From assembly GCA_001599295.1 (NCBI GenBank), contig BCGN01000006.1, forward strand, positions 248,001 through 312,000: a stretch of 64,000 nucleotides of DNA. The letters run 5' to 3'. Origin of the DNA: Sporopachydermia quercuum. Taxonomy: Eukaryota. Position 1 is the stretch's first letter. Every line of letters begins with the position of its first letter. This document shows, one piece after another, positions 3,517 to 37,308 of this stretch. A model generated the notes under the pieces. The model was not told where the DNA came from and searched no databases. It saw only the letters and a program-made list of their open reading frames with translations. The translations under genes and the position numbers were made by a program.

Positions 3517-4316
3517 TTTCTATTTCTCTCTTGTGAAGTTTTTGCACTTCGAGTTGTGTTGTATATTACATTGTATTCTATTGTTTGTTTAATTGTTAGG
3601 TTTTACCAATATTATTAATATAATTGTTTTGTTTGGTTAGCATTTAATAGTGGTTACCTAGTGCCCATACATAGTAAAATCGTGGTAAAACTCCCATGTT
3701 TGGTAACTAAGAACCCTTTTCTGCTCAGTTGGCATTTACAGGACTTCCAAACTGTATTCACCGCACGTCAGAAAATCCTCTTTTCATCAAACTTGAATTT
3801 CCAGNAACAGAACCAAACATTATATATATCCCTTCTTAACTCTACCCATTCTCTTGCCTGTTTCCCGGTCAATGGCATGAAAGTCATTCATTCATCATCG
3901 CTCTAATCCCCTCCCAGACATCATGTATCACCCCACAANCATCTCATGTGAACCCCTTCCAACAATATTACTTTGTTACCCGCACATTCATATCCCCTTG
4001 ATCACGTAACCACAAATGTTCACACAAAACTAACACTCTGTCAATGTATCCCAATTGGTGTTTCGGCTGTCATCGTCCACAACTCAAACACGAGAATCAA
4101 ATCACCAAGATCTTATCCTGAATGCACTATTGGAGGCTGATAGAAATAAAACAGTATTTTTTATCGAAACAACCTCAATCCATTTAACCGTNAGGGGTAA
4201 TTGATCTTTCACTGACAAGGATTAATTCACTAACCGTTCAAGAGTTAATTTAACTAGTGATTTGATCNCTATCCACACAACACGCAATTGAATAGGTTTG
4301 GTAGTATCCAGAAACA

Positions 4317-7196: not shown

Positions 7197-8190
7197 TCGA
7201 TGGGAATGATTTGAACGGTGAATAAAGCATAAAAAGCGGTGTGGTACGATTATGATGTAGTATTTGTTGTTCTTTAGTTATATACAAATATGTGCGAGTT
7301 TAACAATTGAAAAAGGTATTTAATAAGATACATACCATGTTGAAAGTGCTTATAATGAAGTGGAAGCATTGAAAAGAATCCGTAGATTGTGTTCTGTAGG
7401 ATTGAAAAGTTCATTCTAGTTGTGTAGTTGTTTAACCATTTTGTTAGTGTTCTGTATTATGTTATATTATGTTCAGTTGGCTGAGCGGAGAACTGTCATT
7501 GAAGGAAATACAATCGAAGAGTAGTCTTTTGTTTCGCTAATTGAGCTGTCTGTTTCATAACTGTTTAAGTAAGATAAGTATTTAATATATCGTGGATAGG
7601 AGTTACTATTGAGTTGGTTATTACAAATTATTATTATAATCAATATTACTGCTTAGTTCTTATTAGCTGACGATATTTGAACACAATCAGAAAATCAATC
7701 TCTAGAATGGTCATAAGTAAAGGATAGTCAGGAATTTTGACAAATCATCAAGGCAAGCATAAAAAAGTTGACTGGGTGACTGGATAATTGATGAGAACAG
7801 CGTTTAGGTGAACATAAGATAGTCCCTGTAAGTTTCTTTATAAATTGACCTCTGAATCGATTTGAGTTAATTATCTGATTTAGCTATATTATAGGTATGA
7901 GTTGATATTATCTTATTNAACTACTGTATACAGTTTATAAACAGATATTCAGCAATACTCTAGAAGTATCACTATGCATCACAGAATAAATCGTTATCAA
8001 CAGCTAAGAACCTACTGTTTTCTTTATTCACCTTTTGATTGTATGACTGGGTTACAATTAGCTCATGATTANCTCATAGCTTATACTATGCGAATTATCC
8101 TAGAAATAGATATATTAAAATAAGTTTTGACCATAATACTATACATAATCCCTCTTATTCACTGCACAGATGTATCCATATCGAACATTC

Positions 8191-9960
8191 CTATCCTCTC
8201 TTTGAATATTTATCACTATCAAGAATAGAATACAACATAGATAGTGCAGTTCTATTCGCTTCCGGTGTACCAGTAACGGCTATCAGTCGTTCTCGTGATG
8301 CTCCAGTATCGTATCCTTCAACTATCTTAACATCGGCACCAGATAATCTCTGGATCTCATGAATTTTGGATCCTCCTTTACCTATGATTGATCCTATCAT
8401 ATCCCTAGGAATAGTAACGTTACGCGTGACGATCTTTGAGGAGTCATTGGATGTACCATTATCAGTAGCACTGTTATTATTAGCACCATTGTTGTAGTTA
8501 CTGCTATTAGCAGTACTATTGTTATTATTATGATTGTAATAGTTACCATTGAAGCCGTCAGCAGAAGTACCGTTGTTGCTATTAATGCTATTGTTGCTGT
8601 AGGTATTACTATTCACTTCGGCTGTAAAATCACCATTTACATCTGTCGACTGGGAGTTATCAACATCCATCTCATTGCGATCACCAATAGACGATCTACT
8701 CTGCTGTAACAAGCTATTATCCTGCAGCATTCTTACATTGATTGGCTGTCTGTTGAAAGAATAAGGATTTCCGTATAAACCAGTCACCGGTACTGGATTA
8801 TACATAGAAACTAGCTCATTGTTTGAATTATGATCAGAAAACCTTTGGAAAAGAGCCAACAAAGACTCCACAGCTTTTGCTATTGATGTTTGAGTGCCAG
8901 TGATGGAAATTGATTGATACGACGACTGAAATAAAGGTGTTAAAGACAGATCAATAGAACAGCCTGTCTCAGCAGCTATAGTCGTGATTAGATCAAATTT
9001 ACTATTGAACTTCAGCTGGTGGATCTCTGTAGTTGATACTAATACTGTAATTGAGAATCTGGATTTAGGATCAGAATATGTAACAATAGGGTATTTGATA
9101 ACCGTAGCTATGACAGATGCTGCTAGTGATACGTTCGTAGTCGATCCTGTGATTGCTACTAATCGATCAACGACTCCACGGGCTTTATCGCTGACAGAAA
9201 TAGATGTGGATGATGTGTTCATGATCTCTGATAGCTGTAAATCATCTCTTCCAATGATGAGGTCCCCTTCGCTTGCTGAGACTAATAGAAGAAGCATTGT
9301 TGTTTGCAGGGATAATTCATTAGAAAATAAAAGAGCTTTCAGTTTATCAGGAATAAATGATTTCTGTTTAGGTTTCTTCCTTGGTTTCAAGAGATCGGAC
9401 GCAGCACCATCCATAGCAGAAGTTGTTTGTTTCGTTTGTTTAATACGCTGCTTGTCTGTTTGCTTAATTGTCTCTTTGGTTTGTTTCGTTTGCTTTGACT
9501 GTTTGATAGGTTCAGTAGTAGCAGCCAGTTGGGGTTGGAGTTCGTTAGAACCAACGAAGTTTGCAGTTTCGTTTTTGCTTTCGGTTTCTTTCGATTTTTT
9601 CAAATCTTGTAGAGTGGAATCTTCTTCCTTGTTAATAGGAGTATCTGATTTGTTCTTTTCAGCGTTTTCTGTTTCGTTTTGTTTTTCATTTCCGGTGTTT
9701 GTTGATTCATCATTTGTGCTGGCTTGGGTAGATGCACCACTGGCCGTTATCAGTTCAACTTCAGACCGTTCTTCCCTATCAATAGCATTATTTGATGGCT
9801 TTGTTTGTTGCTCTACAGGTTTGGGTTGCTGCTCGGTTTGTCCTTGGTCCTCTTGATGTTCTGAAGCCTGCTGTACGTCACCACCTGCCTCAGCTTCTTT
9901 CTTTGCTTTCTTTCGGGCTGCTGCTGCCTTAGCAGCCATTGACCGCTTCCTGGACACCAT
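8191..9960 (-). CDS. KH-domain RNA-binding protein (hnRNP K/Pbp2/Hek2-like) with one canonical C-terminal KH and degenerate N-terminal KH domains
   Basis: C-terminal IPRDMIGSIIGKGGSKIHEIQRLSGADVKI...ERLIAVTGT is a canonical KH. Upstream KH-like segments are LLVSASEGDLIIGRDD and TIAAETGCSIDLS...ISITG, with an Asn-rich linker. Confidence 0.85.
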   Translation of the reverse strand: MVSRKRSMAAKAAAARKKAKKEAEAGGDVQQASEHQEDQGQTEQQPKPVEQQTKPSNNAIDREERSEVELITASGASTQASTNDESTNTGNEKQNETENAEKNKSDTPINKEEDSTLQDLKKSKETESKNETANFVGSNELQPQLAATTEPIKQSKQTKQTKETIKQTDKQRIKQTKQTTSAMDGAASDLLKPRKKPKQKSFIPDKLKALLFSNELSLQTTMLLLLVSASEGDLIIGRDDLQLSEIMNTSSTSISVSDKARGVVDRLVAITGSTTNVSLAASVIATVIKYPIVTYSDPKSRFSITVLVSTTEIHQLKFNSKFDLITTIAAETGCSIDLSLTPLFQSSYQSISITGTQTSIAKAVESLLALFQRFSDHNSNNELVSMYNPVPVTGLYGNPYSFNRQPINVRMLQDNSLLQQSRSSIGDRNEMDVDNSQSTDVNGDFTAEVNSNTYSNNSINSNNGTSADGFNGNYYNHNNNNSTANSSNYNNGANNNSATDNGTSNDSSKIVTRNVTIPRDMIGSIIGKGGSKIHEIQRLSGADVKIVEGYDTGASRERLIAVTGTPEANRTALSMLYSILDSDKYSKRG

Positions 9961-10795
9961 CGTTTCTGTTTATAATTACAGGATAATGGGAATCAGCTGA
10001 ATGCATGGATTCGATTGACTTTAGTAGGTTAGAGGCTTTATCACGGTATTTTCGCTGTTGGCATCCAATAAAGCTTTTGTTACAATACTAAGGAGCAAAA
10101 TATATGTTGTTTGGAGAAAATACAATGAATTTCGGAATTTATATTTAGTGATGATTTCCGGTATGTTTTTAAATATTTCCAAAACGGGTGTACGAGATTG
10201 AATGTCAAAGCATAGAGTTAAATACTAGACAATTATGACCAAAATCTATTATTACTCTCAACAAGAACTGAATAATACTTTTACAGCAAGCTACCTGATT
10301 GAAAATTCACCGAACTTTTGCTTTTTCGACATCTTTTCCCATTATCAACAATCTTTCCTTTCTATCTTTTGTGCTCATTTCCTCCTATCTTCCTGGCTTG
10401 CCCTCCTTNCCATTTTGCATCGCGTATTCAGTATTAAATGCTGATTCTCAATTCCTCCCTCGGATCACATAATCATTAAAACTTCTATTCTTGATTACCA
10501 AATGCATTATTTGATTGGCGGTGAAAATTTTTCCCTTAACGTAGAAACATTAATTCTGATCCATTTATTGATTATCATACCCCGCTATAAATGAATAACG
10601 GTTGTCACATAGTTGCGAAGTCTTAACATATAGTAGAAATTGGTTCTACTAGGCTGTTGACTTGATATCATAGCTATTGGTAATTTAACACTATCAATAG
10701 TGCTGATTATCTTTACTTATGTTTATGTATATCTTATCCATATCGCTTCTCTAACTATTTCGTGAAGATTACATAGACACCTAATCTACAGCAAG

Positions 10796-12892
10796 ATGAG
10801 GTTCAGTAACACTGTTAGCAATCTAAGCGTTATTATGAAGAAAACAATGCTATTATACACAAGCCGAACGATGGCAACAGCTGCGAAGCGAATTCCTCAA
10901 AATTTGACTGAGAAAATTGTTCAGAAATACGCTGTAGGACTGCAACCAGGGAAAGTTGTTCAATCAAGCGACTATGTGTCCATCAAACCAGCACATTGCA
11001 TGTCTCATGATAATTCATGGCCTGTGGCTATGAAATTCATGGGTTTAGGTGCTAAAAAGATAAAAGATAACAGACAAGTTGTCATGACACTTGATCACGA
11101 TGTTCAGAATAAATCTGAAAAGAATCTAACCAAGTATCATAATATTGAAGCGTTTGCGAAGAAACATGGAGTTGACTTCTACCCAGCTGGTAGAGGCATT
11201 GGACACCAGATTATGATTGAAGAGGGCTATGCTTTCCCATTAAACGTTACCGTTGCTTCAGACAGTCATTCTAATACATATGGTGGTATTGGTGCGCTAG
11301 GTACCCCTATTGTTCGAACAGATGCAGCATCTATTTGGGCTACAGGTCAAACATGGTGGCAGATTCCTCCCGTTGCTAAGGTTGAGCTTCAAGGTAGACT
11401 TCCAGCTGGCGTTACTGGTAAAGATGTGATTATTGCATTATGTGGTGTTTTCAACAACGATGAAGTGTTGAATCATGCCATTGAATTTGTTGGAGAAGAA
11501 TTAACTGAGTTGCCAATCGATGCTAGATTGACCATTGCTAATATGACTACTGAATGGGGTGCTCTCTCTGGTTTATTTCCTGTTGATGAGGCATTGATCA
11601 ACTGGTACAGAGACCGAATCAATAAGCTGCCCCAACCTCATCCTAGAGTTAATAAGGAAACTATTGATCACTTAGAGGCTAATGCATTAAAAGCTGATCC
11701 TGATGCCAAATATGCCAAACATTTAACACTCAATCTTGAAACATTGGCCCCTTATATCTCAGGACCAAACTCTGTTAAAGTTTTCAACTCATTGGCTGAT
11801 TTATCAAAGAAAGAAGTCAAAATCAACAAGGCTTATTTAGTATCTTGTACGAATTCTCGTTTGTCTGATATTCAGGCTGCTGCCAAGGTAATTAAGGGTC
11901 ATAAAGTAGCACCTAATGTTGAATTCTACGTTGCAGCAGCTTCATCGAACGTTCAAAAAGACGCTGAGTCCGTTGGTGCTTGGCAAGATATCCTAGATGC
12001 TGGTGCTATTCCTTTACCAGCAGGCTGTGGTCCATGCATTGGATTGGGCAGTGGATTGCTAGAGGATGGCGAAGTAGGTATTTCTGCTACCAACCGTAAT
12101 TTCAAGGGAAGAATGGGAAGCAGAGACGCCCTGGCTTATTTGGCATCACCGGAAGTCGTTGCCGCTAGTGCTGTGACTGGTAAGATTGCTTTCCCTGAAG
12201 AAGTTGAAGGAAAGGAACTCCCATCTTTCAAAGGTATCGAAAGCAGTGTTACTATACCTCAAAGAGATGCCGGAGCTGAAAGTACAGAAGTTACGGAAGG
12301 TTCAGTTAATATCTTGCCAGGATTCCCTGAAGTCATTGAAGGTGAATTAGTACTCTGTGACGCTGATAATATCAACACTGATGGTATTTATCCAGGTAAA
12401 TATACTTACCAAGACGATGTTTCCAAAGAGAAGATGGCTGAAGTTTGTATGGAAAACTATGATACTGATTTCGGCTCTAAGACAATAGCTAGTGATATTA
12501 TAGTCTCTGGTTTCAATTTTGGTACTGGTTCATCAAGAGAACAAGCAGCTACATGTATACTAGCTAGAGGAATGAAGATGGTTATTGCTGGATCATTTGG
12601 TAACATTTTCTCTAGAAACAGTATTAATAATGCATTAATGACATTGGAAATTCCTGCGTTGATCGAAAAGCTGAGAGCTAGATATAAGGATGCTGAGCCA
12701 GAACTTACTAGAAGAACTGGTTGGTGGGTCAAATGGGATGTTAAAAAGTCATTAGTGACAGTGAGAGATGGACAAGAAGGTCCAGTTGTTTTACAACAAA
12801 AAGTTGGTGAGATTGGGGAAAATTTACAGGAGATAATAGTTAAAGGAGGATTAGAAGGTTGGGTGAAGGCTGAGTTGGAAAAGGGTAATTAG
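10796..12892 (+). CDS. LYS4: Homoaconitase, mitochondrial
   Basis: [38 protein letters not shown] Fe-S ligands and [11 protein letters not shown]; basic N-terminal presequence. Confidence 0.96.
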
Positions 12893-13500
12893 ACCAACGA
12901 ATAGGCATAATAATAGGTCATAACTATGATATGATAATGTACATAGGGCTGCTGTTACTACATGAAGTGTAGTTTATGTATATATGTATTTATGAATAGT
13001 GAGTAGATATAGAATATACCATATATGATTATTCGAGAAAGCAGTAGCGCATTGATAGAATATTTTTCAAGAATTGTATATGGTTTAATACCAAGCGAGC
13101 AATAATAAATATATCATCATTAATGAAGTGTCGCCTGTTGTTAATTAACAGTGAGAATAGTGGCACTTCTGACTTGATTAGCCTATTGATATACAGTACA
13201 TCCCTGAAAGCTCTTACTTCTTATACAGTCCGTTGTCAATTGAACAAGTATTAAAGTCTATCAATTTTCATATACACAGTAGATATTCTTGTAATGATAA
13301 ATTAGATCCTCAAGCAATTTCCAGTTTATATGGCGATTGCTTTCCTTTCCTACTCATATCATCACATCTCCTATCAGTTCATTTGCTAAACGTATTTGAA
13401 GTAATCAAGCAGCTCCAATGATCTGCTCTTAATGTCATAACGGGAAAAAATAATACCATCATACCAATATAAGCAAGAATATATTCATTTCATAATACAC

Positions 13501-13989
13501 CTAAATAGTCTCTATATCCTTAACAACCTCATCGTAGTTCTCCTTATATTCTTCAGTCTTTGAAGAATCACCCTTCTTACTTCCACCAGGAACAATCATC
13601 ACACAACTGGTTGGTCTTTTAGTAGCTCCAGCAGATCCTAAATCTTCCTTAGAAGGAATGAAAACATATGGAACACCATGATCTTCGCATAAAACTGGAA
13701 TATGAGAAATGACATCAGGAGGAGAAATGTCACCTGCTATCACAACAAGTCCCTTTTCACCTTTTCGTAGACTCTTGACAACTTCCTTAACACCCCTTTT
13801 AACATGCTTGGCTTTTGATGCTTTCTTTACAGTTTTTAGTAACTTNTTGTTTAACTTTTTTGGTGCAAGAGGTTCAGCGAATGGTAAAACGGCTACTAAT
13901 CGTTTTTCATAGTTATCCTCACCAGACTCTTCCTTTTCCTTTCTCACCTTCTTTGGTGAGTCGTCCTTCTTGCTCTTATCCTTCGCCAT
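13501..13989 (-). CDS. NHP2: H/ACA snoRNP subunit (L7Ae family)
   Basis: KRGVKEVVKSLRKGEKGLVVIAGDISPPDVISHIPVLCED...LGSAGATKRPTS. Confidence 0.96.
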   Translation of the reverse strand: MAKDKSKKDDSPKKVRKEKEESGEDNYEKRLVAVLPFAEPLAPKKLNXKLLKTVKKASKAKHVKRGVKEVVKSLRKGEKGLVVIAGDISPPDVISHIPVLCEDHGVPYVFIPSKEDLGSAGATKRPTSCVMIVPGGSKKGDSSKTEEYKENYDEVVKDIETI

Positions 13990-14181
13990 TATGTAAAATC
14001 TTGTGGTTATGTTGATGGTTGAAATTTGAATATGTGGATTAAAGAAAAACCCAAGAAACAGTTTCTATCTTTGTAACTATTCTATTTGTTAATTGTGGTA
14101 GTCAATTTTGTGTGATTGTCCCAATCCTTCTGTGAAACTTTTCTCTAAATGTCACAAATTTTTTTACTTGGGAAGATGAAC

Positions 14182-14443
14182 TTACCCGGATGTGACTAAC
14201 ATCAGGTCTCGTCGTGAGAAGAACTTGACTTCTCTTCAATTCCAAGAAAAGGCTTCAAACAGATTTGTTGATTGTTTCTTTCTACATTGAAGTACATTGA
14301 TAGAACTAATTCCTTTCTCATCTTGGTTGTCAATAGAGTTTATGGGATATATGAAACTAGAATGTTGGATNNCTTTGGCTTCACAGGAAAATATTAGCAT
14401 GATTCGTCATATAGTGTGGAAGGAATATTGGACTTGTCACGTG
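14182..14443. promoter_or_regulatory. Divergent promoter elements between NHP2 and the DEAH-like gene: Reb1-type TTACCCGG (14182-14189) and Cbf1-type GTCACGTG (14436-14443)
   Basis: Exact matches to known yeast general regulatory factor motifs in the roughly 500-bp divergent intergenic region. Confidence 0.45.
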
Positions 14444-14490
14444 GCTACTCTACATTGTACGAAAAAAATACACATAGATAATGGCTCATC

Positions 14491-16701
14491 ATGAGTAGTA
14501 AGAAGTCAGCTACAAACAGCATTGGAGAAGCAAAGCTGAAATTTCAATATTTAGCCGAAAAGTCCAATGTTTTAATCGTGGGAAGTACTCAGGAAGTGAT
14601 TGTCAAAGAGCAGCTTCTGCAATGGTTATTTGAGATTGGATGGACACATATTTTGTGGGCACAGTCTGATGACTCTAGCTCAAAATCATGCTTTGACTAT
14701 CTTTCTCGGGTTAATTGGAAGATACATGCGAACAAGAATGTAGAAAATGTTAATGCTGGAACTTCTAATGAACAGAGGACTAAGCACAGGCTTCCTGTGA
14801 CCAAGGGGGTTAAATTTATGACTCATAATGAACTTTTGGAGGAGGCTCTAGGTGATCCTCTTTTTCGAGATACTGACGTATTGGTGCTTGTTGAAGGTTT
14901 GGAGCAAAGGGCTGATATGGAAATTATGGTGTGCTTGTTGAAAAGGGTCGTGAAAATACGTAAGACTCTACGAGTCATTGTTGTGTGTGGTCTCGATAGT
15001 AATTCTATCGAAACGTATGTAATGTACTTTGCCGATGGTGTCAACAAAGATATTAAAGACAAGAGGACGACTGAATCCAAAGAAATAGATGATAATGTCA
15101 AAGTGGGTGTTGAGGTTAACAAAATGGTGATCCCAAATTTCAGAGGAAACTTATCTAATATTGAAGTGATGCATCTCCAAGAATCATGTGAGAACTACAT
15201 TCTAAAGTGTCAGGAACTAGCCTTACATATACACAACGAGGAGAGTTTGTCAGCAGGCAGTATAATAGTTGTTTTACCAGGTAAACAGGAAGTTGAGAAA
15301 GTCTCTTCAGGAGTTTTGACGCAATTGGTGCTACAGAATAGAATAAGAGGGGTAGATGCTATCAACTATGATTTTGAGGTCGTCTCCCTTTATAAAGGCA
15401 TCAACAAAGAAATTTTATCTGAATTATATAAACAGGAAGAAAATAAGTATTCCAGTTCTCTCAGAAGTAACAGACGTTATATAATAATATCCACTTCTTT
15501 GGTTGAAGATCTTGACCCTTGTATTCCTAACACTGGTTTTGTTATTGATAGTGGTAAAGTCAGGATACCCTTCTATGATTACGCCATAGGAATAACAAGA
15601 GTGAAAGTTCTCAATGTTTCTGTAGCTAAAGCTAACCAAAGAGCACAATTAATTACGGCAACTGCAGGTGGTAAATGCTATCGGTTATATTCTTACATAA
15701 ATATGAAAGACATACAAGGCGAAAACCTATCGGAAGTAAGCAGAATTGAACTGAGTGGTTTAGTTTTGAAGATGAAAACTTTAGGGATTCAGAACTTCTC
15801 CCAAGCAAAATTACTGACGAGATATGATCTCGAGAGACTTCAGAAAAGTTTGGTTTATCTGTACCAGCTTGATTGCTTGGATGGTAATGGCAAGCTTACA
15901 CCGTTAGGTAGTTTGATAGGAAGGCTAATTTATGCTGCTAGTAGTAGATCAGGATCCATAGAAGATACGGACTTCAGCCAATATATTGACAGAACAGACA
16001 TCAATGCAATTAGAATGGCAACATGTGTGGTTAAAGCAAAAGGATCAGATGTATTTGAAGAGATGCTTACGCTGTATGGTTTACAACAATTACGGACAGA
16101 GATGTTCAAGCAACAGGGTAAAAACGTGAGTCGTGATAATGATAACGATGACCCAGAAAGCCTGAAACAGGTCAAACTGAAATATGAACTCATTTCAGAG
16201 GAGGGCGATCTTTTCTCTAATTTGAATGCTGTTACAGCATACGAAAACGAATTCCGCGATTCAAAATATAGTGACATCGCAATGTATAGATGGTGTCAAA
16301 AGAGAGGAATCCATCATCAAATTATTAAACAGACTCTAAATATTCGCAACAAGCTTCAATATGAGTTAGAGAAAGACTCTTATTTCCAACAGCAGCCAAT
16401 CAATAAAACAGATGAAGATACTGATTCAAAATCAACTAAAATCACCAGACTGCTCGTGAATGCTTTCAGAAACAATATCGGAATGTTTCAAAAGGTAGAT
16501 GGCTCTATAAAACTTTCAAATAAGGCTGCAAAAGATTGGAAAGCATGGATATATCCCAAATCCATTCTATTCGATCTTCCTATCAATAATGATGACGTGA
16601 TCATATACACTGAGTTAATTGAAGCTAATGGAAAGATATATGCAAGGAATCTACATAAAGTAGACCCAATTGTTTTTAATCAATGTATACTAGATAGCTA
16701 G
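14491..16701 (+). CDS. DEAH-box RNA helicase-like protein (DHX35/Gih35-like) with degenerate catalytic motifs; probable pseudo-helicase
   Basis: Colinear with the DEAH fold: VLIVG..QWLFEIGW, VKFMT..EALGDPLF, IIVVLPGKQEV, FVIDSGKVR, ANQRA, GKCYRLY, LKMKTLGI, HA2 KLTPLG and EEGDLFSNLN. It has no GKT, DEAH, SAT or QRAGRAGR. Confidence 0.88.
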   Translation: MSSKKSATNSIGEAKLKFQYLAEKSNVLIVGSTQEVIVKEQLLQWLFEIGWTHILWAQSDDSSSKSCFDYLSRVNWKIHANKNVENVNAGTSNEQRTKHRLPVTKGVKFMTHNELLEEALGDPLFRDTDVLVLVEGLEQRADMEIMVCLLKRVVKIRKTLRVIVVCGLDSNSIETYVMYFADGVNKDIKDKRTTESKEIDDNVKVGVEVNKMVIPNFRGNLSNIEVMHLQESCENYILKCQELALHIHNEESLSAGSIIVVLPGKQEVEKVSSGVLTQLVLQNRIRGVDAINYDFEVVSLYKGINKEILSELYKQEENKYSSSLRSNRRYIIISTSLVEDLDPCIPNTGFVIDSGKVRIPFYDYAIGITRVKVLNVSVAKANQRAQLITATAGGKCYRLYSYINMKDIQGENLSEVSRIELSGLVLKMKTLGIQNFSQAKLLTRYDLERLQKSLVYLYQLDCLDGNGKLTPLGSLIGRLIYAASSRSGSIEDTDFSQYIDRTDINAIRMATCVVKAKGSDVFEEMLTLYGLQQLRTEMFKQQGKNVSRDNDNDDPESLKQVKLKYELISEEGDLFSNLNAVTAYENEFRDSKYSDIAMYRWCQKRGIHHQIIKQTLNIRNKLQYELEKDSYFQQQPINKTDEDTDSKSTKITRLLVNAFRNNIGMFQKVDGSIKLSNKAAKDWKAWIYPKSILFDLPINNDDVIIYTELIEANGKIYARNLHKVDPIVFNQCILDS

Positions 16702-17315
16702 TTTTTAAAAACTAATNAATTTTAATGAACCAAATGATTTTGTATTATAATCATCTTATCATTTTCTTCCTAGTTCATCTAATTATATAATCTCCTATCG
16801 TCTATCTTACATTCTCAATTACAGATTACATCATACCTAAATATTCCTCTAATCAGCATCATGCATAATCTTGCATAAATATTGCATTTTCTTTTTTCCT
16901 TCTCTTCCTCGGCGGGAAAATCATGACATAAACCACAAACAGTAATTCGAATTTCAACCACAAAGTACGGAAAACCCCACATATACAAAACCTTCTTTGT
17001 TGAGGATTTTGGCCTCCTGTCTTCTTCCTCATAGAATTCAATGAATTAATGAATGCTTGTTAACCGACCTATTGATATTATTGTTTTACTGTTCGTAAAG
17101 TCATGTGTATAATATTGATATCATAGCTTTTACCAATTTTTTGCTGGAATTACTAACATAGTCTCTCAACCTACCGGCAAATCAGAAACTGATCCATCTG
17201 AAGTAGCTAGTGGCACTGCATACTTCGTATACATTCTCATTCTATCACACTATACAAATAACAACCCTTTACAAAACACCCTTCTTGACCTCTGTTTTAA
17301 TTCGATTTCAGCACA

Positions 17316-19172
17316 ATGTCTTTCATGGCAGGAGGAGCAGAATGCTCTACATCAAGAAATCCTTTGACCCAATTCACCAAACATGCGAATCAAGACACAT
17401 CCTTACAACGGCCGGAGTTCATGGCCAATAATAATCAGGTCCATCAAAGATCTATGCGAAGCACAACTGCTGGTATGGGCTTGAAAGATCAGGAAGTACT
17501 AAACCAGTTCAACCAGGGACAAATGGCAGGACCAAATAGTTTCCAGTTTGATGCCATGCGCCATGAACTTACTAGGGTACAGGGCCTTGAAAGCGCGGCA
17601 CAGCCAGGATGGACCAATGAATTTGCTTCGGCTGGCCCCTTGATGTCTTCTTCAAATTCTTCCATTTCCTTATCAGCAGCAGGCACACCTGTTACAGCTT
17701 CTAGCAACAACTGGTCGTCCGAATTCCATTCCAGAGGTTCCACTCCCTTGCAACAGCAGCCTGGCCAACCAATGATGAATATGGGTGGTGGGTTAGGATA
17801 CACTCCACGATTTGTTAGTCAGTTTGCTAATGGTGGTGGTATGTATGCCAATATGCCTATGAATCAGCAAAACATGAATCAACAAGCAGGAAAAATTGTG
17901 GAACTGAGCGACAAAAGCTGGGACGATGAATTCAAGAAGATGGAGAGCACTTTGTCAAGCAAAGGTAAAGAAAAAATTCAAGAAGCTGTAGCATTAGGTC
18001 CAGAACCTGTTGGAAATATACTCACTGACAATCTACAACAGGATCAAGTACTTGAACAAGCAGAAGAAGGCGTCTTGGATGAGTCAGCTGCTAAGGAAGC
18101 CTTTGAACATGATGAGTTTGAAAGAATTTGGAATAATATTAACCAAAACGAGGAGTTGAATGACCATTTCTGGAATCAAGACGATGTTCCTGATTGGGAA
18201 AGAGATTATGTCGAACACAGTCAAAACAGAGCCAATTATGGTGACTACAGGTTCGAAGAAAACAACCAGTTTATGGATATGCCCGATGCATTTGCTATTG
18301 GAGTTCAGTTACAGGAATCAGGGGCAAAGTTAAGCGAAGCTGCTCTTGCATTTGAAGCGGCCGTTCAAAACGACCCTAACCATGTTGAAGCTTGGTTGAG
18401 ATTGGGTAACGTTCAAACCCAGAACGAAAAGGAAGATGCGGGAATCAGAGCCTTAGAAAAAACCCTTCAACTAGATCCTGATAATCTAAACGCTCTGATG
18501 AATTTAGCAGTATCATATCTCAACGAGGGATATGATAATGCTTCATATGCAACACTAGAAAAGTGGATATCAGTAAAATACCCTGACATTGCAGCTCAAG
18601 CTCGTAGAGAAGAACCCCAGTTGTCTGGTGAAAATAGATTTTTATTGCATAAGAGAGTCACAGAATTGTTCATGAAGGCAGCTCAGCTATCACCAGATGC
18701 TGCTAGTTTGGACGCTGATGTTCAATTGGGATTGGGTGTTTTATTTTACGGTAATGAGGAATACGATAAGACTATTGATTGTTTCAGGACAGCCCTTGCC
18801 ATTCGACCCGATGATGCATTACTATGGAACAGATTAGGTGCATCATTGGCAAACTCTCAAAGAAGTGAAGAAGCATTAGAAGCTTATTATAAAGCATTGG
18901 AACTACGGCCTAGTTTTGTTAGGGCAAGATACAACTTAGCTGTTTCTTGCATCAATATCGGTTGTTATAAAGAAGCGGCAGAACATCTATTAGGGGCTTT
19001 GANCATGCATAAAGTTGAAGGAGCAAGGGAAGACAAAATCGCCGCTAATCAATCAACATCATTATATGAAACTTTGAAACGTACATTCTTAGCTATGAAT
19101 AGAAGGGACTTAATTGAGAAAGTAGGTGTGGGAATGAATATTGATGATTTTAGAGGCGAATTCAACTTCTAG
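17316..19172 (+). CDS. PEX5: Peroxisomal targeting signal 1 receptor
   Basis: N-terminal conserved Cys (GGAECSTSRNPL), several WxxxF/Y motifs and C-terminal TPRs (WNRLGASLANSQRSEEALEAY). Confidence 0.97.
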   Translation: MSFMAGGAECSTSRNPLTQFTKHANQDTSLQRPEFMANNNQVHQRSMRSTTAGMGLKDQEVLNQFNQGQMAGPNSFQFDAMRHELTRVQGLESAAQPGWTNEFASAGPLMSSSNSSISLSAAGTPVTASSNNWSSEFHSRGSTPLQQQPGQPMMNMGGGLGYTPRFVSQFANGGGMYANMPMNQQNMNQQAGKIVELSDKSWDDEFKKMESTLSSKGKEKIQEAVALGPEPVGNILTDNLQQDQVLEQAEEGVLDESAAKEAFEHDEFERIWNNINQNEELNDHFWNQDDVPDWERDYVEHSQNRANYGDYRFEENNQFMDMPDAFAIGVQLQESGAKLSEAALAFEAAVQNDPNHVEAWLRLGNVQTQNEKEDAGIRALEKTLQLDPDNLNALMNLAVSYLNEGYDNASYATLEKWISVKYPDIAAQARREEPQLSGENRFLLHKRVTELFMKAAQLSPDAASLDADVQLGLGVLFYGNEEYDKTIDCFRTALAIRPDDALLWNRLGASLANSQRSEEALEAYYKALELRPSFVRARYNLAVSCINIGCYKEAAEHLLGALXMHKVEGAREDKIAANQSTSLYETLKRTFLAMNRRDLIEKVGVGMNIDDFRGEFNF

Positions 19173-19805
19173 ATACGGATAAAATGAGGTGAATGAATAG
19201 TACATGATCTGATGTGAAAGTAGAAATTAAGTAATCGTGCTCTGCATTTTTTGTTTGGTGGAATCGTAATTGATTAGAGAAAAATAATAGGAGAAGCATG
19301 TGTTCTAATATGTCTGAATTTGAAGTGTAAGGGATGCTATTATATTAATATATGATATTGAATACTTGAGCTATACGTTTCAATCTCTATAGAACGTGTG
19401 ACGTACATGGTTTACTTTGTTTTTGGTATTTAGATAATTTGATGGAGAATCTATCAATAATAAGCTCTCCAAATAAATAAAGGCAGATTTGTCAACGTTA
19501 GAATACAACTATTGATTAAAAAAATATACCTAGGATTTAGTGAAAAGAGATTTAAGATGTGTCTAGGGAATTACTGGAATATGTACTTCTTCCATATGAG
19601 CAGCGTGATAGGATGGTCGTCTACCCAACAGTATTCTGTCATACACAAGTATCATCTAATGTCTATCGCCGTCTACTGGTTCTACATTACTATTGCTATC
19701 ATCGTTTCATTACAAATATAAAATATTATTATTTATCTATTTACCTAGTTCTAGACTAACTAGCTTTAACCCTTCAGTCATAAATGCTATCATAAAGATA
19801 ATCAT

Positions 19806-20478
19806 CTATAGACAACATTTCTTACCGTCATCATCATGCACATTGTAACCACCTAATGGTTCATATCCAAATAGGAACTTACCGAATAGAGCACCTAGAA
19901 TACAACAGATAATGATATATCCATTATAATACATGAACAACAACATGATAATATATGATGCACCCCATTCGATGGTAAAAAACCCGGTTCTTATTAAATG
20001 TTCAAACAATGTTGGTCTGATCTCTGTAGACGAAGAAGAGAAGTTCATCAGCCATTCATGCTTAATGGTAGCCCATAATGGGTTTTCAATCTTGACAGGG
20101 TTTTTGTCCAATTCAGAGCTGGAATCACTTGATTCACTTCTGGGAGGATCGAGACGAGTTTGTCTCCTAGCTTTATGAGCTTTGATTAATTGGTTATCAT
20201 ATTCCCTGGAAAATCTATGGAACCATTGAAAAGCTAGAACAAAGAAAAAGACACCAATACAAGAGCCAGCAAACATGCCTCTGGAAGTGTTTCTCCATGA
20301 TTTTGCGATAAAACATGTGTCTATAGTGTACCAGTTCCATAACATCTGTAATTTGTTAGTATGGTCTTTATNGAAGATTCTTGAGCTTCAAGTTTATACA
20401 TACGGAAATCTTGCATTTACTAGCTGAGCTTGCGCTTGCGCTTGCTGTAGCATTAGCACTCATTCCTCCCATATCCAT
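19806..20478 (-). CDS. CTR3: High-affinity copper transporter, Ctr3-type; exons 20478-20404 and 20345-19806, intron 20403-20346
   Basis: Spliced product MDMGGMSAN...CKIS|MLWNWYTIDTCF...YIIMLLFMYYNG (MxxxM)...KKCCL. The 58-nt intron reads GTATGT...TACTAAC AAATTA CAG and keeps frame. Confidence 0.92.
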
Positions 20479-20565
20479 TTTTGAAGATGTTTTGATTATT
20501 GATTAGCTTTGTCGACCACCCGTAAACTTATATGAATATGTGTGGCAACACAGGTGACCGTTGCT

Positions 20566-20583
20566 GTTGTTGTTGTTGTTGTT
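20566..20583. repeat. (GTT)6 microsatellite upstream of the copper transporter
   Basis: Directly visible tandem trinucleotide. Confidence 0.8.
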
Positions 20584-20832
20584 GATTATTCTCTATCCTT
20601 TGCCGGACAATTGAAATCAAGAAAAGAAATATGATTGATATCTCCGAGAACCAAGAGTGAATAGCAGAATCTGAATGATTTTGATGATCTTATATGTAGC
20701 CAATCAACAAGAATATTAGACAATACTAAATATTCTAAAGAAATACTGATGGAAATTCACTGGTCCTTATATAGTTGAACTATCCGTCAGTCTTTCTCTC
20801 ACATTCAATAGATACGAAGGTCTGCTGAAAAA

Positions 20833-20840
20833 TGAGCAAA
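20833..20840 (-). promoter_or_regulatory. Copper-responsive element (Mac1-type TTTGCTCA)
   Basis: TGAGCAAA on the + strand reads TTTGCTCA on the gene strand, about 355 bp upstream of the CTR ATG and just upstream of a TATATAA near 20770. Confidence 0.65.
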
Positions 20841-22067
20841 TTAACTGTCTCTTCGATGAGCCAAGTCAGTAAGGCCGCTTAAAGTTCAGAATTTAGAGTG
20901 GAATAAAATACAGTTTAGCCAATACTTTAAACTTTATTTGATTAAACATCATTTCATTTTACTGTTGAGAATGCATTTATTAGTTGAAGATGTGTAAAGC
21001 GATATGATAGATCCAGAAATACAACAATTGTAATTTTGAAATATAGATCATATCAATTCTGACAACCTATAATGACTGAACTGTCAAAAAATTCCAGGTA
21101 AACTAAGATTCTCATTCTATTTTGTTTTCTCAATTCCTCCCACCGTAGCAAAATACAGTTACAGTTTTATAATAACTTTAATAAACCACTTGCTCTATTA
21201 GTCAATGGCAAGCTGCAAATCTTATTTAACTTAACTTTCAGGGCTGTTAAGTTATGTTTCTTCTAAACCCTATCCCTAAATGAAATTCAGTTCTCAGCAC
21301 TTCCTTTTACATTTTTAATGTGCTCATCAAGAAGTGATTTGATAGAGAAAAAAAGAACAATTAAATATATCATGGCTTTTCTGGAAAAATAATCCATCAA
21401 ATTAGCTGAAAATCATAAGGTATAAGCGCTCTGTCATCCTATGTCTATCTAACACTTCTGGCAGGGTAATTGTATCTAATCAAGCGTGGGATGTTTTGTT
21501 GCTACTTCTCTATTAGCTAATAGTTGAAATGCCCAATTCCTACTGTTTCCTCCACCGTTCCCCTGCGAGTTTCTCCTACATCTAGAAGTCTTTCTGTTCC
21601 AGTATATCTCAAAACTCGTACATCAAACAAAATGAACAATAGGCGTACCAATACACTTTGTATAGTGAACTTTATTGGTTATCTGCACTTCTTTATAGAC
21701 CTGAACTTCGAGTCTCGCTTCGTAAAATTCCCGTGATAAGTCAGATGACTTTTCCTTACTACCTACGGCTTCCGGATTTTCATTACTTCGTTTCCTTCTC
21801 CTTATCAACAAGCAGGATATCCTTATGATCAACCAATCGAACCTCCATCACCAACTTAGATTNCGAATGCAATCAATCAAAAACGAATCTCAGCTGGCTC
21901 CAGTTAACTTATTTCTATCACAGGATTTTGCGGATATTACTTATATGCAATCGTGTGCAGCATCAAATCTAAGTCTAGAATTGCTATCCATCAGACCATC
22001 AGCCATCTATATAGATAGATATATTGCAGACAATCAGTTGTTATCGTCCCAGATATAAACGATCAGA

Positions 22068-22949
22068 ATGTCTTTATTTTTCAAATCTCCTCTAGATATT
22101 GACATACGTCTTGATAATGAAGAAAGCAGAGAGTTTGTCGATGTCAAATCTGCAAAAGGAAGAAGAGAGAAGTTTCCTCTTTATCTTGATGGTGAGTCGG
22201 TAAAAGGATCGGTAACTATCCGAGTAAAAGATGGTAAAAAGCTTGATCATACGGGCATAAAGGTGCAATTTATTGGTTCTATTGAAATGATTAATGATGC
22301 AACTCAACATGATGATTTCTTATCCTTGGCACAAGAATTGGCTGCCCCAAGTGAATTGAGACATCCTGAGACTTTCCAGTTTGAATTCAAGAACNTCGAA
22401 AAGCAATTCGAAAGCTACAACGGTATAAATGTTAGATTAAGATACTATATAAGAGTGACAGTATCACGACGTGCAACAGATGTTATTCGAGATAAAGATA
22501 TCTGGGTATATTCATATAAGATTCCTCCCGACACTGTTAACTCTGTTAAAATGGATGTTGGTATTGAAGATTGTCTCCACATCGAATTTGAGTATTCAAA
22601 ATCCAGGTACCACTTAAAGGATGTTATTGTTGGTAGAATTTATTTCTTGCTAGTGAGATTAAAGATTAAACATATGGAGTTGTCGATTATACGAAGGGAA
22701 ACGGTTGGAGTGCCACCGAATCAATTGAACGAGTCAGAAACTCTTGTTAGATTTGAAATTATGGACGGAGCGCCTGTTCGTGGTGAAACTATACCTATTA
22801 GATTATTTTTAGGAGGATTTGATCTTACACCTACGTTTAGAGATGTTAACAAGAAGTTTTCCACGAGGACATTTCTATCATTGGTGTTAATTGATGAAGA
22901 TGGAAGAAGGTATTTTAAACAGAGTGAGATTATTCTCTATAGAGAATGA
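22068..22949 (+). CDS. PEP8: Retromer subunit Vps26
   Basis: KMDVGIEDCLHIEFEYSKSRYHLKDVIVGRIYFLLVRLKIKHMEL, FEIMDGAPVRGETIPIRLFL, RRYFKQSEI. Confidence 0.97.
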   Translation: MSLFFKSPLDIDIRLDNEESREFVDVKSAKGRREKFPLYLDGESVKGSVTIRVKDGKKLDHTGIKVQFIGSIEMINDATQHDDFLSLAQELAAPSELRHPETFQFEFKNXEKQFESYNGINVRLRYYIRVTVSRRATDVIRDKDIWVYSYKIPPDTVNSVKMDVGIEDCLHIEFEYSKSRYHLKDVIVGRIYFLLVRLKIKHMELSIIRRETVGVPPNQLNESETLVRFEIMDGAPVRGETIPIRLFLGGFDLTPTFRDVNKKFSTRTFLSLVLIDEDGRRYFKQSEIILYRE

Positions 22950-23640
22950 AAGAATATGAATAGAAAACAAAAGAATGAAAATCGGTGTGAGTTTGTAGGA
23001 ATGGAATTGTAATAAACATATTTGCATGTATGAATGTCTCAGCTTTTATCTCAGATGTAACTGTACGTCATAAGCAAGCATGACTTCATTTACGGTTATT
23101 GATATGATAATAGCTCAGGTATTTGCTGATAAGTAATTATCAATAAGTCGCCGATGATACTTTTCAGTATTCCTAGTAATATTCCTAATCAGTTGCCCGT
23201 ACAATTATTGTTGTGGAGAAAAGCCTTGATTGAAGATTATCTGTGATGCTTACATTAATTGGATCTATTAGATGAAAGACTGGAGTTAGATTTTCTAGCT
23301 GACAGATTTGAGTCATGTAGCAAACTTAACTGTGGTAAATCTGATTTTAATCAGATAACATAATTACTTCTGTTAAACACATATTTTCATTATCACAAGA
23401 AGCAATCTTGCAATGATCATCTGATCAAGAAGCTTTACTACAGAAAAGGGAAAACTCTTGTTCCGTGTCATGTGATCCTGTACAGAATTTTATTACCCTT
23501 TCCCGTAAAGTCATGTGATCTCATACGGGCCTTCGTCACTTGTCAACCCCGAAATATTATACAAACTACTGCTAACGTTATACGCCAGAGTCCTACATAA
23601 CAAGAGTTGATTAATATTAATCATTAGCTATTGACATTAT

Positions 23641-36017: not shown

Positions 36018-36090
36018 TGCCTCGAGCCGGAGTCGAACCGACGATCTTAACATTACTAGTGTTACGCCTTACCAACTTGGCCATCAAGGC
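36018..36090 (-). tRNA. tRNA-Thr (AGT)
   Basis: GCCTTGATGGCCAAGTTGGTAAGGCG TAACA CTAGTAA TGTTA AGATCGTCGGTTCGACTCCGGCTCGAGGCA: cloverleaf, A/B boxes and a downstream T-run. Confidence 0.95.
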
Positions 36091-37214: not shown

Positions 37215-37308
37215 GCCCGCGTGGCGTAATGGTTAGCGCGTCAGACTTCTATAGGAGTTTCTTGAGATTGCAATCTGAAGATTGTGGGTTCGACTCCCAC
37301 CGTGGGTG
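37215..37308 (+). tRNA. tRNA-Arg (TCT) with a 21-nt intron at about 37252-37272
   Basis: GCCCGCG...TCAGA CT TCT A [intron] A TCTGA...GGTTCGACTCC...CGTGGGTG, followed by an oligo-T Pol III terminator. Confidence 0.93.

What the first reader, a model, noticed from the sequence alone, without database searches (positions are those of the whole stretch)
14491..16701. Full-length DHX35-like DEAH helicase with every ATPase motif erased: candidate pseudo-helicase
Seen: an uninterrupted 736-codon ORF keeps the RecA1-RecA2-WH-HA2-OB order, but the catalytic motifs are replaced. Motif I GETGSGKT reads GSTQEVIV, Ia TQPRRVAA reads AQSDDSSS, II DEAH reads VEGL, III SAT reads CGL, V TNIAETS reads TSLVEDL, and VI QRAGRAGR reads QRAQLITA. 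Structural motifs (VLPG, VIDSG, GKCYRLY, LTPLG, EEGD) are retained. Established: Walker A Lys, DExH and the motif VI Arg fingers are required for ATP hydrolysis. DHX35 (S. pombe Gih35) works with the G-patch protein GPATCH1/Gpl1 in splicing and is absent from S. cerevisiae. Inference: the short N-terminus and the GW, DPL, ANQRA and EEGD features point to DHX35. An intact frame with selective catalytic loss suggests a maintained non-catalytic scaffold or decoy role, possibly an intermediate in the loss of DHX35 from budding yeasts.
Basis: partly seen in the sequence, partly recalled or inferred. Interest (0 to 1): 0.82.

Follow-up and report, generated by a model that had tools for sequence, protein, structure and literature searches.

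The report
ATPase-dead DHX35-like helicase in a yeast
A budding yeast carries an intact, well-folding copy of the splicing quality-control helicase DHX35 in which every residue needed to burn ATP has been replaced, so it looks like a rare natural "pseudo-helicase" kept for a non-motor job.

Summary
Window 14491-16701 (+) is one uninterrupted 736-codon ORF. The protein is DHX35-like. Its best solved relatives are DHX35 chains. Group HMMs score it 255 bits for DHX35, 215 for the next group and 169 for Dhr2. The ML tree puts it inside the DHX35 clade, on a branch about 8 times the median length. An AU test cannot exclude a position just outside that clade. AlphaFold2 gives a confident full DEAH fold (pLDDT 84.3, pTM 0.87), closest to spliceosomal DHX35/Gih35. 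The erosion is selective. Of strongly conserved columns, 13 of 51 motif columns are kept against 41 of 73 others. Of 165 hydrophobic core columns, 144 stay hydrophobic. A neutral copy would meet a stop after about 0.7% divergence. It is therefore most likely a maintained, catalytically dead DHX35 derivative. No close orthologue, RNA data or whole genome was available. Selection, expression, a G-patch partner and a possible second active copy remain untested.

The parts
14491..16701 (+). Complete intron-less ORF of 736 codons plus stop, encoding the DHX35-like pseudo-helicase (P0001)
   Evidence: DHX35 homology; fold
14491..15135 (+). RecA1-like domain (about residues 1-215). It is the most eroded domain. 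The hook-turn region, residues 83-102, is predicted disordered.
   Evidence: Boundaries are approximate, taken from the alignment to Gih35 and the AF2 secondary structure. It keeps 21 of 63 columns that are >=70% conserved.
14581..14604 (+). Remnant of motif I (Walker A): GSTQEVIV in place of GETGSGKT. The Lys and Thr are lost, and the loop is shortened in the model.
   Evidence: 0 of 5 conserved columns kept; in the AF2 model strand 27-32 is followed by a helix starting at residue 35
14659..14682 (+). Remnant of motif Ia: AQSDDSSS in place of TQPRRVAA. Two RNA-contacting Arg are replaced by Asp.
   Evidence: the alternative pairing is noted under the observation check
14890..14901 (+). Remnant of motif II: VEGL in place of DEAH
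14983..14994 (+). Remnant of motif III: VCGL in place of SSAT(L)
15136..15705 (+). RecA2-like domain (about residues 216-405), with the beta-hairpin region VIDSG...ANQRA well kept
   Evidence: 27 of 55 columns kept; 40 of 44 hydrophobic core columns kept
15493..15513 (+). Remnant of motif V: TSLVEDL in place of TNIAETS
15637..15660 (+). Remnant of motif VI: QRAQLITA in place of QRAGRAGR. Both Arg fingers are lost.
15706..15930 (+). Winged-helix domain (about residues 406-480), the best-kept domain
   Evidence: 14 of 22 conserved columns; 21 of 21 hydrophobic columns; Pfam HA2_N match at 454-476
15931..16425 (+). Helix-bundle (ratchet) domain (about residues 481-645) with a lineage-specific insert near 485-502
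16426..16698 (+). OB-fold domain (about residues 646-736)
   Evidence: Pfam OB_NTP_bind at 653-727, 21.4 bits, below the cutoff; AF2 strands 663-724

Best explanation
The ORF encodes a very fast-evolved descendant of the spliceosomal DEAH-box helicase DHX35 (S. pombe Gih35). It probably sits at the ancestral locus next to LYS4. It can no longer bind or hydrolyse ATP, but it is still kept as a folded five-domain protein.

Shown here:
- Motifs I, II and VI lack the residues required for ATP hydrolysis, and most of motifs Ia, III and V is replaced too.
- The RecA1 RNA-contact elements are lost or charge-reversed: Ia RR to DD, Ib R to E, and the hook-turn.
- The frame is open, the hydrophobic core is kept, and the predicted DEAH fold is confident.

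Inferred:
- Selection maintains the protein for a non-motor function.
- The best-kept parts are RecA2 and WH. In Gih35 these, with OB, carry the G-patch of Gpl1/GPATCH1, and RecA2 makes the only direct spliceosome contact.
- The most likely mechanism is therefore a binding-only adaptor. It would dock, with a G-patch partner, on stalled or finished spliceosomes. It would block or mark them, and disassembly would be left to another helicase such as Prp43-Ntr1. I put this mechanistic step at about 0.35.
- I put the core claim (dead, maintained, DHX35-derived) at about 0.6.
For: Identity:
- Best PDB sequence matches are DHX35 chains: 9l5s_z at 125.6 bits and human DHX35 at 99.1, against Prp43 at 92.9.
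- Group HMM scores for P0001: DHX35 255 bits (247 without P0122); a sister group of 8 rows 257; the group containing plant DEAH4 215; Prp22/16 170; Dhr2 169. Two members of the sister group were sent to PDB and both have DHX35 as their best match.
- In the 67-row ML tree it lies inside a 29-row clade (SH-aLRT 96). That clade holds all named vertebrate DHX35 rows and rows that sources name as fungal DDX35.
- It has the DHX35 state at 3 of 4 diagnostic columns, and the non-DHX35 state at 1 of 5.
- G-W follows motif I.

Position:
- The best hit among 1.84 billion representatives, P0122, is a bona fide DHX35 with DEAH, SAT and QRAGRAGR intact.
- P0122 and the best LYS4 hit, P0275 (78% identity), each lie on a single NCBI+Logan contig of 17,759 bases.
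- In the window, LYS4 lies 1.6 kb upstream of the ORF.

Fold: AF2 gives pLDDT 84.3 and pTM 0.87. The top Foldseek hit is 9l5s_z, and Gih35 (9esh_z) aligns with TM 0.87.

Selective erosion:
- Of columns >=80% conserved, 13 of 51 motif columns are kept against 41 of 73 others (Fisher p 0.0009).
- 119 family controls keep a median of 97% of motif columns and 92% of the others.

Maintenance:
- 144 of 165 hydrophobic-core columns are still hydrophobic, against 42% hydrophobic residues overall.
- Simulated neutral substitutions hit a first in-frame stop after a median of 16 changes (0.72% per site). The maximum in 2000 runs was 7.7%.
- The end branch is 5.1 changes per column against a median of 0.63.

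Mechanism lead:
- Domain retention is RecA2 27/55 and WH 14/22 against RecA1 21/63.
- The Gpl1 G-patch runs along OB, WH and RecA2, and Gih35 touches the spliceosome only through RecA2 (PMC12086092, section 9 read).
- Engineered DHX35(K83A) still binds GPATCH1 and joins spliceosomes, but does not release them (PMC13736545, passages).
Against: - No orthologue sharing the degenerate state was found in 5.8 billion clusters or 1.84 billion representatives, nor in JGI metagenomes. There is therefore no comparative measure of selection such as dN/dS.
- Three runs of the organism are identical over 20 kb, so there are no polymorphisms to use.
- Synonymous codon choice is weak: 0.063 per codon. That is second lowest of 18 window genes and no higher than the ORF's own +2 frame at 0.075. 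This fits low expression or relaxed selection.
- Core retention of 87% is near the bottom of the control range (median 98%, minimum 85%).
- The AU test does not reject holding the protein with the non-DHX35 rows (delta lnL 2.25, p 0.41).
- The PEX5 search gave no hit on the 17,759-base contig, so the synteny rests on one neighbour only.
- The G-patch partner, WDR83 and a possible second active DHX35 could not be looked for, because no genome is held.
- No G-patch gene lies in the window.
Confidence: 0.6

Rival explanations
1. Neofunctionalised paralogue. An intact, active DHX35 exists elsewhere in the genome. This copy was freed by duplication, lost catalysis and took on some other role, for example as a decoy or regulator of the active enzyme, or something unrelated to splicing.
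For: The extreme branch length (5.1-6.9 against about 0.7) is what relaxed or positive selection after duplication would give. The whole genome could not be searched, so a second copy is not excluded.
Against: The window holds only one DHX35-like locus (tblastn). The probable LYS4 linkage shared with a bona fide DHX35 suggests this is the copy at the ancestral position.
Confidence: 0.15
2. Relic on its way out. The gene lost its function with the simplification of splicing in budding yeasts, and the open frame is the last stage before pseudogenisation.
For: Codon-choice signal is weak. No relatives share the state. DHX35 is absent from S. cerevisiae (recalled; the preprint 10.1101/2021.03.19.436190, passages, lists Dhr2 as the S. 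cerevisiae counterpart).
Against: A neutral 2.2-kb frame is hit by a stop after about 0.7% divergence, with a maximum of 7.7% in 2000 runs. This protein has replaced about 75% of its residues yet keeps 87% of its hydrophobic core positions and a confident fold. The catalytic loss is therefore far older than any loss of constraint on the frame.
Confidence: 0.1
3. It is not of DHX35 origin. Instead it is a degenerate duplicate of another DEAH helicase (Prp43, Prp22, Dhr2/DHX33-like) drawn to DHX35 by long-branch effects.
For: The AU test does not reject a position with the non-DHX35 rows (p 0.41). The long branch and odd composition were flagged by the tree tool.
Against: HMM margins are 40 bits over the DEAH4-containing group and 85 bits over Prp22/16 and Dhr2. 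The PDB margin over Prp43 is 33 bits. Diagnostic columns and G-W agree with DHX35. There is the probable shared LYS4 linkage with a DHX35.
Confidence: 0.1
4. It is still an NTPase or helicase, using an unorthodox active site.
For: None from the calls. It is listed only because no assay exists.
Against: The Walker A Lys/Thr, the Walker B Asp, the motif II His and both motif VI Arg are all replaced. The P-loop is shortened in the model. A single K83A change already abolishes human DHX35 function (PMC13736545, passages).
Confidence: 0.02

Closest known systems
DHX35 / Gih35 (human DHX35, PDB 9s2f; S. pombe Gih35, 9esh; thermophile-fungus DHX35, 9l5s)
   Same: It has the same five-domain DEAH architecture and a similar length. 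These chains are the best sequence and fold matches. It shares a short N-terminus, G-W after motif I, and well-kept RecA2/WH regions, which carry the G-patch in Gih35.
   Different: The ATPase motifs are essentially gone, keeping only isolated residues (the Glu of DEAH, the Gln-Arg of motif VI), and the RecA1 RNA-binding elements are replaced. Identity is about 25%. The branch is about 8 times the family median. Pfam no longer detects the RecA domains. The partner and the link to the spliceosome are untested.
Engineered DHX35(K83A) (PMC13736545, passages read)
   Same: It is an ATP-binding-dead DHX35. It shows that a dead enzyme can still bind GPATCH1 and be recruited to spliceosomes.
   Different: It is a single laboratory substitution that stalls disassembly. 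Here the loss is natural, affects six motifs, and is accompanied by loss of RNA-contact residues.
Utp25/Def, the DEAD-box-like pseudohelicase of the SSU processome (PMC9539457, abstract and legend read)
   Same: It has a helicase fold with dispensable or degenerate motifs and is kept for a structural role in an RNP machine.
   Different: Utp25 belongs to a different superfamily-2 branch (DEAD-box, two RecA domains only). It is ancient and universal in eukaryotes, and its essentiality has been shown experimentally.
Partly degenerate DHX35-family proteins in other eukaryotes (P0271/P0274 from Tieghemiomyces parasiticus, P0175, P0238, P0208 from Seison nebaliae)
   Same: They are DHX35-clade proteins with altered motif II or VI, for example ENVH or DDAH. 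P0271 keeps only 56% of motif columns.
   Different: P0271, P0238 and P0175 keep an intact Walker A, and all of them keep far more of the motifs. They are unrelated lineages and are not orthologues of the yeast state.

Membership tests
DHX35/Gih35 subfamily of DEAH-box helicases | RecA1-RecA2-WH-helix bundle-OB architecture | tested here: met
   AF2 gives pLDDT 84.3 and pTM 0.87. Foldseek aligns the full length to DEAH helicases, with 9l5s_z on top and 9esh_z at TMt 0.87.
DHX35/Gih35 subfamily of DEAH-box helicases | Closer in sequence to DHX35 than to other DEAH subfamilies | tested here: met
   PDB: 125.6 bits (9l5s_z) against 92.9 (Prp43). HMMs: 255 against 215, 170 and 169 bits. Diagnostic columns: 3 of 4.
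DHX35/Gih35 subfamily of DEAH-box helicases | Monophyly with DHX35 in a tree | tested here: inconclusive
   It lies inside the DHX35 clade with SH-aLRT 96. The AU test does not reject a position outside (p 0.41). The branch is very long.
DHX35/Gih35 subfamily of DEAH-box helicases | Functional ATPase motifs I, II (DEAH) and VI | tested here: not met
   GSTQEVIV, VEGL and QRAQLITA are found instead. Columns kept: 0 of 5, 2 of 5 and 2 of 7.
DHX35/Gih35 subfamily of DEAH-box helicases | RNA-binding motifs Ia, Ib, hook-turn and V | tested here: not met
   Columns kept: Ia 1 of 7, hook-turn 1 of 5, Ib 3 of 6, V 2 of 8. RR is changed to DD in motif Ia. Residues 83-102 have pLDDT below 50.
DHX35/Gih35 subfamily of DEAH-box helicases | Dedicated G-patch cofactor GPATCH1/Gpl1 (with WDR83) and association with spliceosomes | not testable with these tools
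   No whole genome is held. No G-patch gene lies in the window.
DHX35/Gih35 subfamily of DEAH-box helicases | Conserved genomic position with a bona fide DHX35 | tested here: inconclusive
   P0122 (DHX35) and P0275 (LYS4) each lie on one NCBI+Logan contig of 17,759 bases. The contig itself could not be read. PEX5 was not found on it.
Pseudoenzyme (pseudo-helicase) | Enzyme fold retained while catalytic residues are lost | tested here: met
Pseudoenzyme (pseudo-helicase) | Maintained by selection, expressed and functional | tested here: inconclusive
   Indirect support: the open frame against the neutral simulation, and 144 of 165 core columns kept. Against: weak codon choice. No orthologues, no polymorphisms and no RNA were available.
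Unitary pseudogene | Frame disruptions or a neutral substitution pattern | tested here: not met
   There are no stops or frameshifts. Substitutions spare the hydrophobic core and concentrate in the catalytic motifs.
Dhr2/DHX33-type nucleolar DEAH helicase | Best similarity to Dhr2-type sequences | tested here: not met
   169 bits against 255 for DHX35. The tree puts the JGI-named DHR2 row far away.

The most novel reading that the evidence does not exclude
This would be the first natural pseudo-helicase of the spliceosomal DEAH family. It is a DHX35 that has lost ATP and RecA1 RNA binding. It would be kept because the quality-control step it serves needs only its body, not its motor. That step is docking with a G-patch partner on defective or finished spliceosomes, so that catalysis is blocked and Prp43-Ntr1 can dismantle them. 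If so, evolution has separated the 'licensing' role of DHX35 from its 'ejecting' role. It would also give a living intermediate between yeasts with full DHX35-GPATCH1 quality control and yeasts such as S. cerevisiae that lack it.
Probability: 0.3. Interest if true: 0.8.

Novelty: new variant of a known kind. Interest (0 to 1): 0.6.

Why it matters
DHX35-GPATCH1 has only recently been placed in spliceosome quality control and termination (PMC12086092; PMC11958768, search listing only; PMC13736545). How much of its role is motor work and how much is binding is still discussed. A naturally ATPase-dead but maintained DHX35 would be a ready-made separation-of-function allele. It would test whether docking alone has a selectable function.

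It would also add a DEAH-type case to the very short list of pseudo-helicases. Utp25 is described as the first fully validated one (PMC9539457, abstract). My searches for 'pseudohelicase / pseudo-helicase / DEAH' and 'pseudoenzyme / DEAH-box / helicase / inactive' found no DEAH example in the held library.

It would show one route by which budding yeasts slimmed down their spliceosome. The same window also encodes an SDE2 homologue, another splicing factor missing from S. cerevisiae (PMC9508853, passages).

Tried and rejected
- Whole-genome search for a second DHX35, GPATCH1 or WDR83: not possible, because no genome is held.
- Exact look-up of four window proteins: none is in the collection.
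- RNA evidence: no RNA holder was listed.
- Polymorphism-based test of selection: the contigs of runs X1, X2 and X3 are identical to window 4301-24300. The only difference is a 1-base insertion at 19187 in X3, outside genes.
- Close orthologues for dN/dS:
  - None in the word-indexed search. The best hit has 25-26% identity.
  - None in the full HMMER scan of 1.84 billion representatives. The best E-value is 1.1e-35.
  - None in JGI metagenome contigs. 39 pattern matches were found and 0 were confirmed.
- Second neighbour for synteny: among the 120 PEX5 hits listed, none lies on a 17,759-base contig.
- AU test to exclude a non-DHX35 origin: not decisive.
- ESM Atlas: the nearest clusters are generic helicases. 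One unnamed Ascomycota cluster (190 members, about 727 aa, score 0.95) could not be examined, and the next unnamed cluster is an ankyrin/HET family. I take nothing from this.
- Earlier notes of this scan: none by place, sequence or words.
- Complex prediction: not used, because no partner from this organism is available.
- Considered and rejected: an upstream exon or intron that would restore motifs. The ORF aligns with DHX35 from the N-terminal helix to the OB fold in one frame, and a stop lies 4 codons upstream.
Full report
**1. The observation**

Window 14491-16701 (+) is a single ORF of 736 codons. It contains none of the window's 64 isolated N letters. An in-frame TAA lies four codons upstream. 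With the window's composition, an open run of 736 random codons has a probability of about 2e-23 (my arithmetic).

I aligned the protein to DHX35-type helicases, using 7 sequences and 121 sequences. The canonical motifs read as follows:
- Motif I: GSTQEVIV.
- Motif II: VEGL.
- Motif III: (V)CGL.
- Motif V: TSLVEDL.
- Motif VI: QRAQLITA.

For motif Ia the two alignments disagree. The small alignment pairs the motif with DYLSRVNW. Neither version is conserved.

**2. What family it belongs to**

Pfam barely sees the protein. HA2_N scores 21.4 bits against a cutoff of 21, OB_NTP_bind is below its cutoff, and there is no DEAD or Helicase_C hit.

phmmer against all PDB chains puts DHX35 first:
- 9l5s_z, the DHX35 of a thermophilic fungus's spliceosome: 125.6 bits, E 2.2e-35.
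- Human DHX35: 99.1 bits.
- Prp43: 92.9 bits.
- Gih35: 91.1 bits.
- Prp22, Prp16, Prp2 and Dhr1 score lower.

I built HMMs from groups defined on a tree. They score the protein as follows:
- DHX35: 255 bits (247 without P0122).
- A sister group of 8 rows: 257 bits. The two members I sent to PDB both have DHX35 as their best match.
- The group containing plant DEAH4: 215 bits.
- Prp22/Prp16: 170 bits.
- Dhr2: 169 bits.

In a 67-row ML tree (LG+C20 PMSF) the protein sits inside a 29-row clade with SH-aLRT 96. That clade holds all named vertebrate DHX35 rows. It also holds fungal proteins, two of which their sources name DDX35; the others come from Pneumocystis, Ustilago and Pisolithus. Its end branch is 5.1 changes per column against a median of 0.63.

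This placement is not robust. An AU test does not reject a tree that holds the protein with the non-DHX35 rows (delta lnL 2.25, p 0.41).

Small independent signs agree with DHX35:
- It has the DHX35 state at 3 of 4 diagnostic columns and the non-DHX35 state at 1 of 5.
- It has G-W after motif I. That pair was found in 23 of 25 DHX35-clade rows where the pattern could be located, and in 0 of 10 rows of other groups.

**3. Position in the genome**

The neighbours are ordinary yeast genes:
- SEC26 (4317-7196).
- A KH-domain gene (8191-9960, minus strand).
- LYS4 (10796-12892).
- NHP2 (13501-13989, minus strand).
- The ORF itself.
- PEX5 (17316-19172).
- A Ctr copper transporter, VPS26 and a Myb factor.

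The organism has no close annotated relative. The best LYS4 hits are 77-79% identical and include Geotrichum and Cyberlindnera. The best PEX5 hits are 50-52% identical and include Yarrowia and Sugiyamaella.

The top hit for the ORF among 1.84 billion representatives is P0122. It is a clear DHX35: 541 bits to 9l5s_z against 433 to Prp43. Its DEAH, SAT, motif V and QRAGRAGR are intact. The top hit for LYS4 is P0275.

Both are unnamed NCBI+Logan proteins, each seen on one contig of exactly 17,759 bases. I read this as LYS4 and DHX35 lying on the same contig in another yeast. That would make the window's ORF the positional counterpart of a working DHX35. I could not read the contig, and the PEX5 search gave no hit on it. 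The synteny is therefore probable, not shown.

**4. Dead but maintained**

AlphaFold2 with the 121-sequence alignment gives pLDDT 84.3 and pTM 0.87. Only residues 1-7, 83-102, 196-204 and 321-324 fall below pLDDT 50. Foldseek aligns the whole model to DEAH helicases. 9l5s_z ranks first, and Gih35 (9esh_z) aligns at a target-normalised TM-score of 0.87.

The erosion is selective:
- Of columns at least 80% conserved in the family, the protein keeps 13 of 51 inside the helicase motifs and 41 of 73 elsewhere (Fisher p 0.0009).
- 119 other family members keep a median of 97% (minimum 56%) and 92% (minimum 69%) respectively.
- The RNA-contact elements of RecA1 are gone or charge-reversed: Ia RR to DD, Ib R to E, and a disordered hook-turn.

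The core is kept. Of 165 columns that are at least 90% hydrophobic in relatives, 144 (87%) are hydrophobic here, against 42% hydrophobic residues overall. Controls have a median of 98% and a minimum of 85%.

A simulation of unselected substitutions in this very ORF meets the first in-frame stop after a median of 16 changes (0.72% per site). The 95th percentile is 2.9%, and the maximum of 2000 runs is 7.7%. The protein differs from every relative at about three quarters of its positions. The catalytic loss must therefore be far older than any possible release of the frame from selection. This is the main argument for a maintained non-catalytic protein. It remains an inference.

**5. Evidence on the other side**

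- Synonymous codon choice is weak: 0.063 per codon. That is second lowest of 18 window genes and not above the ORF's own +2 frame.
- No orthologue with the same state exists in the collections searched.
- The three runs holding the DNA are identical over 20 kb, so there is no polymorphism to use.
- The whole genome is not held. A second intact DHX35, GPATCH1/Gpl1 and WDR83 could not be sought.
- The window itself holds one DHX35-like locus and no G-patch gene.

**6. How it most likely works**

In the fission-yeast discard complex, the Gpl1 G-patch region runs along the OB, WH and RecA2 domains of Gih35. A further Gpl1 segment sits in the WH-OB groove. Gih35 touches the spliceosome only through RecA2. 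Binding of the pair blocks catalysis and licenses disassembly by the Ntr1-Prp43 complex (PMC12086092, section 9 and passages of the discussion).

In human extracts, ATP-binding-dead DHX35(K83A) still forms a complex with GPATCH1 and is recruited to spliceosomes of unchanged composition. It cannot release them (PMC13736545, passages).

In the window's protein the best-kept domains are WH (14 of 22 conserved columns, 21 of 21 core columns) and RecA2 (27 of 55; 40 of 44). RecA1 is worst (21 of 63; 44 of 56).

The most economical reading is a binding-only DHX35. It would keep the partner and spliceosome surfaces and have lost the motor and the RNA grip. I give this mechanistic step about 0.35, and the core claim (dead, maintained, DHX35-derived) about 0.6.

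The rivals are:
- A paralogue beside an intact DHX35 elsewhere (0.15).
- A relic close to pseudogenisation (0.1).
- An origin from another DEAH family (0.1).
- An unorthodox active enzyme (0.02).

**7. Novelty**

DHX35/Gih35 is well described, and engineered dead mutants exist. Utp25 is described as the first fully validated pseudohelicase, of the DEAD-box type (PMC9539457, abstract).

Two full-text searches found no natural DEAH-type pseudo-helicase and no dead DHX35 in the held library. Subscription journals are not covered.

Several DHX35-clade proteins from unrelated eukaryotes show milder motif decay. Examples are Tieghemiomyces parasiticus P0271 with ENVH, and P0238 with DDAH. DHX35 may therefore tolerate such loss more than its relatives do. 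I rate this a new variant of a known kind.

The window also encodes an SDE2 homologue (48908-49762, minus strand). SDE2 is a splicing factor absent from S. cerevisiae (PMC9508853, passages). That fits a lineage which still keeps part of the richer ancestral spliceosome.

**8. Verdict**

The DHX35 origin and the catalytic death are well supported by sequence and model. Maintenance is supported indirectly. The scaffold, decoy and 'intermediate in loss' ideas remain hypotheses. They need the whole genome, sister-species orthologues, expression data and biochemistry.

Noticed in passing
window 48908-49762 (-): A 284-aa ORF carries an SDE2 domain (E 8.5e-22). Sde2 is a splicing regulator reported as absent from S. 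cerevisiae (PMC9508853, passages). This yeast therefore keeps at least one other 'lost' splicing factor.
   Followed up: partly
proteins P0271/P0274 (Tieghemiomyces parasiticus), P0175, P0238, P0208 (Seison nebaliae): These are DHX35-clade proteins from unrelated eukaryotes with partly degenerate motifs (II = ENVH, DGIH, DDAH; VI altered). P0271, P0238 and P0175 still have an intact Walker A. P0271 keeps only 56% of conserved motif columns. Motif decay in DHX35 may be recurrent.
   Followed up: partly
window 14481-14498 (+): A five-codon upstream ORF (MAHHE-stop) overlaps the start codon of the helicase-like ORF in another frame (read).
   Followed up: no
whole window: There are 64 N letters, isolated or in pairs, about one per kilobase. 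None lies inside 14491-16701. Contigs of three runs show no alternative letters over 4301-24300, so the N letters do not look like heterozygous sites.
   Followed up: partly
window 38035-38376 (+) and 39879-41498 (+): An LSM-domain ORF matches only positions 7-42 of the 66-position model. The GUF1/LepA ORF starts at position 65 of the GTP_EFTU model. Both probably have an upstream exon, which means introns are present in this genome.
   Followed up: no
window 36018-36090 (-) and 37215-37308 (+): Two tRNA genes are present. The second spans 94 bases, so it probably has an intron.
   Followed up: no
window 2029-3516 (+): A 495-aa ORF has no Pfam family at E <= 0.01. Its function is unknown.
   Followed up: no
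ESM Atlas: An unnamed cluster of 190 Ascomycota proteins of about 727 aa, with no common Pfam family, scored 0.95 by language-model features. It could be unrelated.
   Followed up: no
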